64,000 nt of DNA from a virus (lineage: Duplodnaviria; Heunggongvirae; Uroviricota; Caudoviricetes): IMG/VR virus record IMGVR_UViG_3300029415_000001, one strand, 5' to 3'. The notes under the pieces were generated by a model. It made no database searches. It was not told where the DNA came from and saw nothing but the letters and a program-made list of their open reading frames with translations. Positions 14,729 to 51,594 of this stretch are shown piece after piece. Positions within the stretch are counted from its first letter, which is position 1. Each line of letters begins with the position of its first letter. The position numbers were made by a program, and so were the translations under genes.

Positions 14729-14750
14729 ATTCTACCGCAAGTCATTTGTT
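14729..14750 (-). promoter_or_regulatory. candidate late promoter (AACAAATGA-N7-TAGAAT)
   Basis: Same motif architecture as upstream of prt and lyz. Confidence 0.45.
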
Positions 14751-14771
14751 GAATATTTAACTCAATAAAAT

Positions 14772-14788
14772 AAAATTATTAGTGCAAT
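14772..14788 (-). promoter_or_regulatory. C1 operator-like site (ATTGCACTAATAATTTT) in divergent intergenic region
   Basis: Match to the operator family, variant class with GCAC. Confidence 0.5.
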
Positions 14789-14845
14789 ATTGATTGTGAA
14801 ATGTATCATTCTGCCCTTAAGTAGGTTCTTCACGAGGAAACAAAA

Positions 14846-15091
14846 TTGGCAGAACGTGTTGATGATGCAGAGCTGAGCATGAATCAGTTAGAAGCTCTCA
14901 AAGACATGGCCATCGATAACATCAGAAAGCAGGCACAGGTCGTGAGCCAGGTATTTACAGGGAAGAGTCGTTACTGCAATGAATCGATTGAATCAGGCAT
15001 TTATTGTGACGCTGAATGTGCGCAATGGCACAGGGAAGAGCAGGCTGCAAAACAGCGTAAATATGGCATGCGACCGGCAGGATTTGACTGA
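14846..15091 (+). CDS. small Cys-containing protein, possible C4 zinc finger (81 aa)
   Basis: ORF track; CxxS...CDAEC motif. Confidence 0.45.
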   Translation: MAERVDDAELSMNQLEALKDMAIDNIRKQAQVVSQVFTGKSRYCNESIESGIYCDAECAQWHREEQAAKQRKYGMRPAGFD

Positions 15092-15093
15092 TT

Positions 15094-15672
15094 ATGTTGC
15101 GCTTTACTGAGGAAGAGTTTCAGGCTTTTAGTGAGCGTCGAAATAAGGGGCGGTCCAGGCCAAAAACCAAAAAGGATCCATTCTTATCGCTTGCGCCGGT
15201 AAAAGAAGTTTCTCCACATGCGAAGGCACTTGCAGCACTGGCAAAGAACCCAGACCTGCGCGACGGGAATTGCGAGCACTTCGAGCAGGTTTTCATTTTT
15301 GATTACTTCGAACGCAAGCACCCTGACATCTATGAGCTGTTGCATGCAACGCCTAACGGAGGGAAACGTTCAAAAGCAACCGCCGGGAAAATGAAGGCTG
15401 AAGGGCAGAAAAAAGGTTATCCGGACATGAGTCTCGATAAAGCATGCGGTATTTATCACGGCATGCGAATTGAGCTTAAAGAACCAAATGGTAAAGCCCC
15501 GACGAAAGAGCAGATCGCCTGGATGCGCAGGCTTAGAGAGGAAGGTTACTACGTCGTTCTTGCGTATGGTGCAGAACAAGCGATAACCGCCATCCTGGAA
15601 TACATGAGCCTTAAAAAGGGTGAGGCTATTGAGCATGTATTGAACGGTGATAAGTGGTTGTACGCTGCGTGA
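15094..15672 (+). CDS. VRR-NUC-like nuclease domain protein (192 aa)
   Basis: GYPD...ELK pattern consistent with PD-(D/E)xK VRR-NUC fold. Confidence 0.5.
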   Translation: MLRFTEEEFQAFSERRNKGRSRPKTKKDPFLSLAPVKEVSPHAKALAALAKNPDLRDGNCEHFEQVFIFDYFERKHPDIYELLHATPNGGKRSKATAGKMKAEGQKKGYPDMSLDKACGIYHGMRIELKEPNGKAPTKEQIAWMRRLREEGYYVVLAYGAEQAITAILEYMSLKKGEAIEHVLNGDKWLYAA

Positions 15673-15677
15673 AATAA

Positions 15678-15694
15678 TAAATTAATTAGTGCAT
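15678..15694 (-). promoter_or_regulatory. weak C1 operator-like site (ATGCACTAATTAATTT)
   Basis: Partial match to operator family. Confidence 0.3.
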
Positions 15695-15696
15695 AT

Positions 15697-47838: not shown

Positions 47839-47849
47839 TGGTAATCCTT

Positions 47850-47871
47850 AACAAGTGACTAGTGTTAAATT
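47850..47871 (+). promoter_or_regulatory. candidate late promoter upstream of prt (AACAAGTGA-N7-TAAATT)
   Basis: Conserved motif shared with the lyz and 14699 operon upstream regions. Confidence 0.5.
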
Positions 47872-47913
47872 CCGTTCAAACACGATGCGAATTATTCTAA
47901 TTAAGGTGCAATC

Positions 47914-49623
47914 TTGGCAGACAATAAAATCACGCTATCCTCGGTCAGGAAGGCGCTGGCGGGGGTTTTTAAAGACAACGGAGAACGGGACAACATCCTC
48001 CTGTCCGCGCTGGCTGTGCACGGCGGAAGTGGGTATTTGTTTTCTCGCGCAGGGGCACCGGTACAACTGTCCGGCTTCTTAGGCGGCAAACCGGGCGATA
48101 GTGGCATGGCTGGTGATGGGCTGGTGGATGGGAGTCGCTTTATCTTTGATGAAGTTCAACTGCCGGAAGACCGCTTGCAACGCTATCCGCTACTCGAAGA
48201 GATGGCGGTTTACAGCACGATCGCCACCGCGCTGAACATCCATATTACGCACGCGCTCTCTTTCGATAAGAAGACCGGACAAACCTTCTCTATCGTGCCG
48301 GTACACAACGGAAACGATAGTGACTATGACGCCGCGCAAGCGTTGTGTGACGAGCTGATGAAAGACATCGGACGAACCATTAACAAAGAGGTCGCTGGGT
48401 GGGCATTTATCATGTCTGTATTTGGGGTGGCTTATGTCAGGCCATACGCCAAAGAAGGAATAGGGATCACGTCTTTTGAGTGCTCCTATTACACCCTTCC
48501 GAGCTTCATCAAAGAGTTCGAGGTCAGCGGCAACCTGGCGGGATTTAGCGGCGATTATCTGAAGGACGCGTCAGGGAAAATGGTTTTCGCCGATCCGTGG
48601 GCCATTATCCCTATGAAAATCCCCTATTGGCGGCCTAAGTCAAACCTTATGCCGGTGCACACTGGCCATAAGGCTTACAGCCTGCTGGATGATCCGGAAG
48701 AGCGCACGCCGATTGAAACCCAGAATTACGGGACCAGCTTGCTCGAATACGCCTACGAGCCGTACATGAATCTGCGTTCGGCGATCCGCTCGCTGAAGGC
48801 AACGCGTTTTAATGCGTCGAAAATTGACCGAATCATCGGTCTGGCGATGAATAGTCTGGATCCGGTAAAAGCAGCCGATTATTCACGCACCATTACTCAG
48901 ACGCTTAAACGAGCAGCTGACCTGATGGAAAAGCGCGCACGCGGCGCGAATAACATGCCTACGGTGACCAATACCCTGCTGCCTATTATGGGCGACGGCA
49001 AGGGACAGATGACTATTGATACTCAGACCATCCAGGCTGACATCAACGGCATTGAAGACATTCTCACCTATATGCGCCAACTGGCGGCAGCACTTGGCCT
49101 CGATTACACCCTCCTGGGATGGGCAGATCAAATGTCCGGCGGGCTTGGTGAAGGTGGATTCCTGCGCACGGCAATTCAGGCCGCCATGCGCGCCTCATGG
49201 ATCCAGCAGGGCGTAGAAGAGTTCATTCAGCGGGCTATCGATATTCATCTTGCTTTCAAGTACGGCAAGGTATACCCGGAAGGTGATCGCCCGTACAAAA
49301 TCGAATTCCACTCCGTTAATACCGCTCTGCAACAAGAGCACAACGATAACCGCGACTCGCAGGCGAACTACGCCACCATCGTTACGCAAATCCTCGATGC
49401 CGTCAGCAATAACAGCGTCCTCGCCAATTCCGATGCATTCAAACGTTACCTGTTCAGCGATGTGCTGGAGATTGACGAAAAAATCTCTGAAGCACTGGTG
49501 AACGAACTGAAAGCGAAAAGCGAGGACGACGATCACCTGATGGATTCCATCATCAAAACACAGCCACAGGAACTGGCGCAAATCCTTGAATCGGTCTTTA
49601 AAGAGGGAAATGAGAATGACTGA
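47914..49623 (+). CDS. prt: portal protein (Prt position)
   Basis: 569-aa ORF, TTG start with TAAGGTG RBS; followed by head protease; synteny with P1 prt-pro. Confidence 0.7.
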
Positions 49624-50635
49624 TGTTTTGAAAACGGTCACTGACCGCTTTTGTCTCTATAGTAATGCTCGAAAAGGTCGCCAGAACGGGCGACAGTATG
49701 TATTAAGCGCGGTAAAGACCATGCTTGAAAGCAAGGAAACTCAGGAAGGTTTACGCCTTGGTGAGCTTTTCGGCTATTACGGTCACGGTCGCCGACAGCT
49801 GACCGGCAAACTGGAAGTACCAGAAACCAGCGTGATCATGGTGGAAGGTCGCCCGGTCGTAATCGACAATGTTCCAGCGTGCCGAACAGTGGCTATATCT
49901 GTTGACGACAACGGCATCGTTACCCATACACAGGAAATTCTTAACACAGAGCCGGGTAAAATTGTCGCCGCGATGATCGAAAGCCGTGCTGGTGGCTGGA
50001 GCTGGGCCACTGGCGGGCGCGAGTCCGGGAAAATCGCTGTAACCACCAGCTTCCATGGTGTGGATTATGTGACAACGCCGAACTATATCAGTCTGGATCA
50101 TCCTGCCAGCGCCGGAATGTTTGAAAGCGCGGATTCTAAATCTCTACTGGCAGAGTCCCTGGCGGCGCATGGGTACTCCGACGAGTCAGTGCAGGCCGTT
50201 ATATCCCATTACGGCAAAATGGCTGAACTGGAAATGATGGTGGAGGCGACAGAGCGTACGGCAGAACTGGAAACCGCATTACTCGAAAGCCAGGGCCGCC
50301 ACCTCGAAGCAATGGCCAAGATCGCAGATGCTGAAGCGCGAATCGCTTTGCTGGAGGAAACAGCGGGTATCCGCGACGATGTGCTGGCAGCAATGCAAGA
50401 CGAACTGGATAACCTCCCGATCTTCGTCTCCGCCGCCCAAAAAGACGCATTCCGCCTCAAAGAACCTGGTGATGCAAAAATCGTTGCCACACTTTTCGAA
50501 TCTCTGATCAAAGTTGGAGCACGCAACTTGCCTGTCACCAAGAAAATTAAGGAGGTTCCGCAAGCGGCTAACGTCCAGGCACCGCGTGAGACAAGCATCA
50601 TCACGTTTAATAATTCAATCAATCCGTTCAAATAA
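49616..50635 (+). CDS. pro: head processing protease/scaffold (Pro position)
   Basis: ATG 49616 overlapping prt stop (ATGACTGA); coiled-coil C-terminal half. Confidence 0.65.
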
Positions 50636-50926
50636 CCACCAAAAATAACCCCGGCGGCTGCCGGGGGTATCGTTAACTATTATCGCCTTCGCCTGCGTGC
50701 CATATATTTGCGCACCGCGCGGCGTGGACAATCTGAAGCGGTTTCTTTCTGTTGCATCAATCTCGCAGCCATGCTCAAAAATGTCAGGCACAGCCGAAGC
50801 TCGGCATACAATAGCGGTTCCAGTGGCCACGTCTCATTGAGCACATATACCGCCATGAAAATCGAGTCAAAAACTATCGCCGCCAGCGATAACTTCATTG
50901 TCGAAAGTCGGCGGAGCTGCCGGAGT

Positions 50927-51484
50927 TTATTCATTGACCAGCCCCGTCAGGCAAAGCTGGCGTTCATTTTCACGGCGAATCTTTAACCCAGGCAGGGGGA
51001 CGCCGTTACTGTTCACAAAATCAGGGAGATGGTTACACATATTCACCCATTCCCCTTTCTGCGCCCACTTGTGGATGGACGTTTCGACTCGCATGCCTCG
51101 CGCTTTGCTGTAGTAGGCCCGTAAACTATTGCATCCCATATTGAATGCCGCGCTTGTCATTGCGCTGAAGGCATTATCGGGCATGTCTTTGCCCCGGAAG
51201 TGCTGGTTAATACAGCGTTCAGCGATCAGGATATTCTTTTCCCAATCAGCGGCGATTTGCTGGTCTGTTTTTCGCACACCCGGCGTTACCCCGTGTGTAT
51301 TACCGATCCCGTCAGTCCATACCCCTGCCGGGCACATGTATGGATCACGTCGGCAACCTTCAGCGTTTCCGATAAGCTCAAGCCCCGCCTGGTTGGTTCG
51401 CACATTGCCATTACCCATCACGATGGTAATCATCACCGCGATAGCGCAAATTGCACCGCCTCCTGCGGCTGTTTTTCCCTTCAT
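50927..51484 (-). CDS. lyz: SAR endolysin (lysozyme) Lyz
   Basis: 185-aa product matching P1 Lyz as recalled (MKGKTAAGGGAICAIAVMITIVMGNGNVRTNQAGLELIGNAEGCRRDPY...); track ORF over-extended to 51829. Confidence 0.95.
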   Translation of the reverse strand: MKGKTAAGGGAICAIAVMITIVMGNGNVRTNQAGLELIGNAEGCRRDPYMCPAGVWTDGIGNTHGVTPGVRKTDQQIAADWEKNILIAERCINQHFRGKDMPDNAFSAMTSAAFNMGCNSLRAYYSKARGMRVETSIHKWAQKGEWVNMCNHLPDFVNSNGVPLPGLKIRRENERQLCLTGLVNE

Positions 51485-51572
51485 AAAGACCTCATAAGCG
51501 AATTTTTTACGCTCCAGGACAAACACCCATTCACAGCCATTACCGACTGACTCGATCCCTTTAGAAGGCACA

Positions 51573-51594
51573 GGATAATGCAAATCACTTGTTA
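51573..51594 (-). promoter_or_regulatory. candidate late promoter upstream of lyz (AACAAGTGA-N7-TATCCT on minus strand)
   Basis: Motif match. Confidence 0.45.

What the first reader, a model, noticed from the sequence alone, without database searches (positions are those of the whole stretch)
14729..51594. Recurring late-promoter-like motif AACAA(G/A)TGA-N7-TANNNT
The same architecture precedes three late operons: prt-pro (47850-47871, +), lyz (51573-51594, -) and the morphogenesis operon starting at 14699 (14729-14750, -); a weaker copy precedes mat (38144-38165) next to an operator. This fits Lpa-dependent promoters that lack a -35 hexamer, but my recollection of the published consensus is imprecise.
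Basis: partly seen in the sequence, partly recalled or inferred. Interest (0 to 1): 0.4.

Follow-up and report, generated by a model that had tools for sequence, protein, structure and literature searches.

The report
Known phage P1 late promoters
The recurring motif is real: these are the already described and GenBank-annotated late promoters of bacteriophage P1, switched on by the phage protein Lpa, so the finding is correct but ordinary.

Summary
The window is a P1-like phage/plasmid, about 98% identical to P1 (AF234172).

Corrections:
- The lyz site is off by one base.
- Three more annotated late promoters in the window were missed: LPpac 29460-29478, LPdar 62903-62921 and LPpmgL 14739-14757.
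- A fourth exact match, inside gene 7 (13024-13045, -), was not reported.

Supporting evidence:
- None of the sites has a -35 hexamer.
- lpa and its C1 operator are present in the window.
- Box and -10 are conserved islands in a relative whose Lpa is 67% identical (0.85 and 0.83 identity against about 0.4 in the flanks).

Small additions:
- The conserved element is an asymmetric 11-mer, AC-AAGTGACTT.
- The gene-7 site is a candidate extra late promoter.
- Phage D6 (Lpa 31% identical) carries a different box, AAATCACA-N7-TANNNT.

Verdict: already known, low interest.

The parts
14729..14747 (-). LP26: box AAATGACTT (14739-14747), spacer GCGG, -10 TAGAAT (14729-14734). It drives the operon 26-25-7-24-6-5. 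AC precedes the box at 14748-14749.
   Evidence: Ortholog of P1 78485-78503 'late promoter LP26'. PWM 33.1 bits, the top hit in the window. Gene 26 ORF is 14322-14699.
14739..14757 (+). LPpmgL: the divergent promoter annotated in P1, which reads the same box on the other strand (AAGTCATTT-GTTG-AATATT). It is the weakest member.
   Evidence: Ortholog of P1 78495-78513. PWM is only 12.3 bits, within the chance range. It lacks the upstream AC and has C at the box centre. It is not conserved in JK004 (direct reading of the sequence).
29460..29478 (+). LPpac: ATGTGACTT-TCGT-TACCCT, between lpa and pacA (GTG at 29514).
Evidence: Ortholog of P1 90475-90493 'late promoter LPpac'. PWM 29.2 bits.
38147..38165 (+). 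LPmat: AAGTGACTT-CAGT-CAGAAT. It shares its -10 with the sigma-70 promoter Pmat. The C1 operator Omat lies upstream at about 38097-38114.
   Evidence: 100% identical to P1 2678-2696 'late promoter LPmat; former LP2'. PWM 26.8 bits.
47853..47871 (+). LPpro: AAGTGACTA-GTGT-TAAATT, upstream of prt-pro (prt TTG at 47914).
   Evidence: Ortholog of P1 17251-17269 'late promoter LPpro'. PWM 29.7 bits.
51572..51590 (-). LPlyz: AAGTGATTT-GCAT-TATCCT, upstream of lyz-lydD-lydE.
   Evidence: Ortholog of P1 20969-20987 'late promoter LPlyz'. PWM 26.6 bits.
62903..62921 (-). LPdar: AAGTTACTT-TGCA-TACCAT, upstream of lydA-lydB-hdf-darA (lydA GTG at 62874).
Evidence: Ortholog of P1 31212-31230 'late promoter LPdar'. 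PWM 24.2 bits.
13024..13045 (-). Unannotated late-promoter-like site inside gene 7: AAC-AAGTGACTG-GTGA-TAACCT. It is a candidate internal late promoter for genes 24-6-5. Its function is not shown.
Evidence: PWM 19.5 bits, above the maximum of 17.7 in 100 simulated sequences. One mismatch to ACAAGTGACTT-N4-TANNNT. Also present in P1 at 76777-76804 but not annotated there. Partly kept in six other lineages.
28976..29428 (+). lpa, the late promoter activator gene (150 aa).
   Evidence: PF25716 BPP1_LPA, E 3.1e-57. phrog_1704, Lpa-like transcriptional activator. 100% identical to P1 Lpa.
28889..28905 (+). C1 operator Olpa, overlapping promoter Plpa, which keeps lpa off in the prophage.
   Evidence: Identical to P1 89904-89920, annotated as 'monovalent C1-controlled operator Olpa'.

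Best explanation
These are the Lpa-dependent late promoters of a P1-type phage. Each has a -10 hexamer (TANNNT). Four base pairs upstream lies a conserved box, AAGTGACTT, centred near -22 in place of a -35 element. In the prophage, repressor C1 sits on operator Olpa and keeps lpa silent. After induction Lpa is made. According to the literature, Lpa binds the box as a sequence-specific DNA-binding protein and, together with the host RNA-polymerase-associated protein SspA, lets sigma-70 RNA polymerase start at these promoters. This switches on packaging (pacA), head (prt-pro, mat), tail/baseplate (the gene 26 operon) and lysis (lyz, lydA) operons. What is shown here: the orthology to annotated promoters, the architecture, the absence of a -35, the presence of lpa and Olpa, and the conservation across species. 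Lpa binding, the SspA requirement and the start sites come from the literature or are inferred.
For: Seven of the 11 late promoters annotated in P1 have orthologs in the window at 96-100% identity. The other four lie outside the window or in a replaced segment.

A weight matrix built from the P1 sites ranks the six canonical ones as the top six of 128,000 positions, at 24-33 bits. ACAAGTGACTT-N4-TANNNT with up to 2 mismatches gives 7 hits against 0.18 expected. No site has a -35.

In Cronobacter phage JK004 (Lpa 67% identical) the same architecture sits upstream of orthologs of genes 23, R, pacA, mat, prt, 26, lyz, pmgC and lydA. P1-JK004 identity is 0.85 in the box and 0.83 in the -10, against 0.50 in the spacer and 0.38-0.40 in the flanks. 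Other Salmonella, Klebsiella and Enterobacter lineages keep it at LP26, LPmat, LPpac and LP23.

Phage D6, whose Lpa is only 31% identical, has a different box at its late operons. This is expected if the box is the activator's recognition site.

The Lpa model has a confident winged-helix core, pLDDT about 90 for residues 20-95. Its best structural matches are Fur/PerR/PadR/MarR DNA-binding domains.

[quoted passage not shown] 2003).
Against: Nothing contradicts this. The limits are as follows. No transcription data were available for this element. Lpa and SspA dependence is taken from work on P1 itself. The matrix and extended consensus were derived from P1, so the orthologs match them by construction. 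LPpmgL scores within the chance range, and only the annotation supports it.
Confidence: 0.96

Rival explanations
1. The repeats are chance or compositional matches with no regulatory role.
For: The pattern is short and degenerate. The 9-mer alone also occurs at four places without a -10. The published 9-bp pattern with 2 mismatches is no commoner than chance: 20 hits against 15.3 expected.
Against: There are 4 exact matches against 0.05 expected and 7 against 0.18 for the extended pattern. The sites sit in intergenic DNA upstream of late operons. They are conserved as islands in phages with diverged flanks.
Confidence: 0.01
2. They are ordinary sigma-70 promoters, or C1 operator-controlled early promoters, rather than activator-dependent late promoters.
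For: The -10 hexamers match TATAAT at 3-5 of 6 positions. mat also has an annotated sigma-70 promoter (Pmat) that shares the -10 and a nearby C1 operator. The P1 record lists predicted sigma-70 promoters near lyz, gene 26 and pmgL.
Against: No -35 match at 16-18 nt spacing at any site. No TG extended -10 at most of them. The conserved box occupies the spacer. C1 operators (ATTGCTCTAATAAATTT type) are a different sequence. The box changes along with Lpa in D6.
Confidence: 0.03

Closest known systems
Bacteriophage P1 late promoters LP26, LPpro, LPlyz, LPmat, LPpac, LPdar and LPpmgL (GenBank AF234172 annotation; Lpa = gp10)
   Same: Orthologous positions, 96-100% identical sequence, the same box-N4-hexamer architecture and the same downstream operons. 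lpa and Olpa are present.
   Different: Only single-base differences. For example, the LP26 box is AAATGACTT here and AAATGACTA in P1. LPhot is missing because the pmgT-humD segment is replaced by a type I restriction-modification system.
Francisella PigR with MglA-SspA bound to RNA polymerase
   Same: A DNA-bound activator is thought to work by contacting an SspA-family protein that rides on sigma-70 RNA polymerase. P1 Lpa-SspA is cited as the precedent for this model (PMC1891329).
   Different: Different activator family, host virulence genes rather than phage late genes, and a heterodimeric MglA-SspA. No sequence relationship was tested here.
Phage Mu Mor/C-dependent middle and late promoters, and P2/P4 Ogr/Delta-dependent late promoters (from my own knowledge, not tested here)
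   Same: Phage late promoters with a recognisable -10 and a poor or absent -35. They depend on a small phage-encoded DNA-binding activator and host sigma-70 polymerase.
   Different: Those activators bind dyad elements further upstream (around -43 for Mu, around -55 for P2) and belong to other protein families. The P1 box lies in the spacer, centred near -22, and needs SspA.
Late promoters of phage D6, a distant P1 relative
   Same: Same family of activator (Lpa 31% identical) and the same set of late operons. An upstream box sits at a fixed distance from a TANNNT hexamer.
   Different: The box is AAATCACA, starting 15 nt before the hexamer, instead of AAGTGACTT starting 13 nt before it. It resembles the P1 box read on the other strand (AAGTCACT, 6 of 8 bases). 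I could not check whether this is already published, because the D6 genome paper is not in the library.

Membership tests
P1 Lpa-dependent late promoter | -10 hexamer of the form TANNNT | tested here: met
   TAGAAT, TACCCT, TAAATT, TATCCT and TACCAT; CAGAAT at LPmat, as in P1.
P1 Lpa-dependent late promoter | 9-bp inverted-repeat box (AAGTNACTT type) ending 4 bp upstream of the hexamer (the '-22 region') | tested here: met
   All six canonical sites have at most 1 mismatch to AAGTNACTT-N4-TANNNT: 8 hits against 0.92 expected. Positions coincide with the annotated -22 regions.
P1 Lpa-dependent late promoter | No -35 hexamer | tested here: met
   0-3 of 6 matches to TTGACA at 16-18 nt spacing at every site.
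P1 Lpa-dependent late promoter | Located upstream of a late (morphogenesis, packaging or lysis) operon | tested here: met
   Upstream of gene 26, pacA, mat, prt, lyz and lydA. The gene-7 site does not meet this; it is intragenic.
P1 Lpa-dependent late promoter | Cognate activator gene lpa in the same genome, under C1 operator control | tested here: met
   lpa at 28976-29428, PF25716. Olpa is identical to P1.
P1 Lpa-dependent late promoter | Transcription depends on Lpa and host SspA | not testable with these tools
   Known for P1 from the literature. Needs reporter or in vitro assays.
P1 Lpa-dependent late promoter | Start site placing the box centre near -22, that is about 7-8 nt after the hexamer | not testable with these tools
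   No TSS data for P1 were found in the library. Predicted starts are inference only.

The most novel reading that the evidence does not exclude
The Lpa target may not be a symmetric 9-bp palindrome. It may instead be an asymmetric 11-mer, AC-AAGTGACTT, read in one orientation by a winged-helix protein. In addition, P1-type phages may carry a twelfth, unannotated Lpa-dependent promoter inside gene 7 (window 13024-13045, -) that boosts genes 24-6-5. The D6 lineage may have re-specified the box together with its diverged Lpa.
Probability: 0.35. Interest if true: 0.3.

Novelty: already known. Interest (0 to 1): 0.1.

Why it matters
The finding has little importance of its own, because these promoters have been described and annotated for P1 for decades. 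For annotation, it confirms that this P1-like element keeps the standard late regulatory circuit (C1, then lpa, then the late promoters) despite several cargo swaps. The small additions would refine how Lpa-type activators recognise DNA, a question with no solved structure. These additions are the asymmetric 11-mer, a candidate internal promoter in gene 7 and a different box in D6. They would need experiments to confirm.

Tried and rejected
1. The 80 IMG/VR loci fetched with Lpa are all 99-100% identical, so they are useless for footprinting.
2. Lobocka et al. 2004 (PMC523184) and Lehnherr et al. 1991 (PMC208978) are not held. The 'published consensus' was therefore taken from the GenBank annotation and from secondary citations.
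3. No P1 start-site dataset was found. No Lpa-SspA structure paper and no PDB relative by sequence were found either.
4. A crude greedy ORF mask wrongly placed LPlyz and LPdar in 'coding' DNA, because mechanical ORFs over-extend. It was dropped in favour of the P1 annotation.
5. Other pattern hits were rejected as chance:
   - 53374-53401 (+), 12 bits, within the chance range.
   - 54853-54871 (-), a perfect box but no TA in the hexamer and no upstream AC.
   - 24889 in hsdS.
   - 62591-62612 (-), 6.8 bits.
6. A first version of the 18-site table used wrong minus-strand offsets. It was corrected.
7. The genome-contig scan with gp7 gave only 9 loci, mostly D6-like.
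Full report
**What the window is.** A 5-kb stretch around prt-lyz matches P1-type phages at 97.6-98% identity. A BLAST of the whole window against P1 AF234172 gives these colinear blocks:
- window 1-20725 = P1 64325-84481
- window 26955-35469 = P1 87970-94800
- window 35470-38930 = P1 1-3462
- window 40354-52142 = P1 9752-21539
- window 55833-64000 = P1 24146-32309

Four stretches do not match P1.

**Check of the observation.**
- The fourth, 13024-13045 (-), was not reported. It lies inside gene 7.

**What the sites are.** The P1 GenBank record annotates 11 late promoters. Each consists of a 9-bp '-22 region', four bases, and a -10 hexamer. Alignment shows that the window holds orthologs of seven of them:
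- LP26, 14729-14747 (-)
- LPpmgL, 14739-14757 (+)
- LPpac, 29460-29478 (+)
- LPmat, 38147-38165 (+)
- LPpro, 47853-47871 (+)
- LPlyz, 51572-51590 (-)
- LPdar, 62903-62921 (-)

LPs, LPsit and LP23 lie outside the window. LPhot is missing because its segment is replaced.

That shift explains why it finds LP26, LPpro and LPlyz, finds LPmat only weakly, and misses LPpac (ATGTGACTT), LPdar (AAGTTACTT, preceded by AG) and LPpmgL.

**Specificity.**
- A weight matrix from ten P1 sites puts the six canonical orthologs at ranks 1-6, with 24-33 bits. The gene-7 site follows at 19.5 bits, above the maximum of 17.7 in 100 simulated sequences. LPpmgL scores 12.3 bits, which is within the chance range.
- The annotated-form pattern AAGTNACTT-N4-TANNNT with at most 1 mismatch gives 8 hits against 0.92 expected. 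With 2 mismatches it is no better than chance: 20 hits against 15.3 expected.
- None of the sites has a -35 hexamer.

**Regulatory context.**
- lpa is present at 28976-29428 (PF25716, E 3e-57) and is 100% identical to P1 Lpa.
- The C1 operator Olpa upstream of lpa is identical to P1.
- Omat is annotated 33 bp upstream of the LPmat box.

**Conservation in relatives.** Cronobacter phage JK004 (Lpa 67% identical; proteins 60-85% identical) carries P1-type sites upstream of the orthologs of genes 23, R, pacA, mat, prt, 26, lyz, pmgC and lydA. Over nine orthologous promoter pairs, identity to P1 is as follows:

| Region | P1-JK004 identity |
|---|---|
| Box | 0.85 |
| -10 hexamer | 0.83 |
| Spacer | 0.50 |
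| Flanks | 0.38-0.40 |

Salmonella, Klebsiella aerogenes, Enterobacter hormaechei and other lineages keep the motif at LP26, LPmat, LPpac and LP23.

Phage D6 (Lpa 31% identical) has only one P1-type site. Instead it carries AAATCACA-N7-(T/C)ANNNT upstream of gene 23, prt, ddrB, R, pmgB, mat and a peptidoglycan hydrolase gene. Looser copies sit upstream of genes 7, 26 and lydA.

A loose regex for this box was not significantly enriched: 13 hits against 4.9 expected, and the maximum among the simulations was also 13. The case for the D6 box therefore rests on its positions upstream of late operons.

**Mechanism.** According to the literature, P1 has 11 late promoters whose 9-bp inverted repeat is the Lpa-binding site (PMC10695390). 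[quoted passage not shown] 2003). SspA bridges sigma-70 region 4 and the beta-prime zinc-binding domain (PMC7515715).

No solved structure is related to Lpa by sequence. An AlphaFold model from 13 homologs has a confident core, pLDDT about 90 for residues 20-95. The core is three helices plus a beta-hairpin, which is a winged helix. Its best PDB matches are Fur/PerR/Zur, PadR, MarR and BlaI DNA-binding domains, with E 0.006-0.08 over about 70 residues. This fits a DNA-binding activator but does not prove the binding mode.

**Refinement of the consensus.** The counts below cover 18 sites, 9 in P1 and their 9 JK004 orthologs.

| Position | Base | Count |
|---|---|---|
| -2 (before the box) | A | 18/18 |
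| -1 (before the box) | C | 16/18 |
| Box centre | G | 15/18 (C once) |

- The two bases before the annotated box are as conserved as the best box positions.
- There is no mirror-image GT after the box.
- ACAAGTGACTT-N4-TANNNT with at most 2 mismatches returns exactly seven sites against 0.18 expected. These are the six canonical promoters and the gene-7 site.
- The consensus comes from P1 and JK004, so only the gene-7 hit is independent of it.

**The gene-7 site.** The sequence is AAC-AAGTGACTG-GTGA-TAACCT, 46 nt after the gene 7 ATG. It is also present in P1 at 76777-76804 but is not annotated there.

For a promoter, across seven lineages:
- AC is kept in 7 of 7.
- The Asp codon that supplies the first T of the hexamer is GAT in 7 of 7, although other Asp codons nearby alternate between GAT and GAC.
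- The next codon begins with A in 7 of 7, although it encodes N, T or I.
- The following codon has T at its second position in 7 of 7.
- In D6, gene 7 is separated from gene 25 and has its own D6-type box.

Against a promoter:
- Box position 8 is T only in P1 and the window, and C elsewhere. Position 9 is G, which is never seen in canonical sites.
- Matrix scores in the other lineages are only 2-13 bits.
- The peptide QVTGD(T)LP is itself conserved, so a coding constraint cannot be excluded.
- The Pantoea relative has lost the box.

I rate it about 40% likely to be functional.

**Verdict.** The feature is already known and annotated in P1, so interest is low.

Noticed in passing
window 13024-13045 (-): An unannotated, exact late-promoter-like site lies inside gene 7. 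It is also present in P1 at 76777-76804 and is partly conserved in six other P1-like lineages.
   Followed up: yes
window 20801-26854 (-): A type I restriction-modification system (hsdR 1038 aa with an EcoR124_C domain, hsdS 418 aa, hsdM 520 aa) replaces the P1 segment pmgT..humD, including hot and LPhot.
   Followed up: partly
window 38993-40300 (+): A 435-aa ORF with a SIR2_2 domain sits where P1 carries the EcoP1 res/mod genes. It may be a swapped defence gene.
   Followed up: partly
window 52376-54682: A Gram-negative porin gene (348 aa, -) and a DDE transposase (402 aa, +) occupy the place of the P1 isaA/IS1 region.
   Followed up: partly
window 38185-38300 (+): A 1-nt deletion in a G-run, relative to P1, breaks the 250-aa Mat ORF annotated in P1. 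The ATG at 38296 gives the 213-aa form seen in JK004 and other lineages. A terminator-like hairpin with a T-tract (38256-38274) lies between LPmat and that ATG, so the mat leader may hold an attenuator.
   Followed up: partly
L086/L087 (phage D6, MF356679), e.g. 54124-54142 (-), 25221-25239 (-), 38115-38133 (-), 45491-45509 (-), 72100-72118 (-): D6 late operons are preceded by AAATCACA-N7-(T/C)ANNNT instead of the P1 box. D6 also has a single P1-type site, at 71090-71117 (+).
   Followed up: partly
P1 63959-63986 (-), JK004 23650-23677 (-), L097 31837-31864 (+); outside the window: A weak box-like site with a GANAAT hexamer lies upstream of ppfA in three lineages (AC-AAAGGACTT, AC-AAATGACCT, AC-ATATGACCT). 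It may be another Lpa-responsive promoter.
   Followed up: no
window 62928-62939 (-): A second box-like sequence, AAC-AAATGACCG, lies 15 nt upstream of the LPdar box and has no -10 of its own. It is not conserved in JK004.
   Followed up: no
window 14739-14757 (+): The annotated LPpmgL scores within the chance range, lacks the upstream AC and is not conserved in JK004. Its status as a real late promoter looks doubtful.
   Followed up: partly
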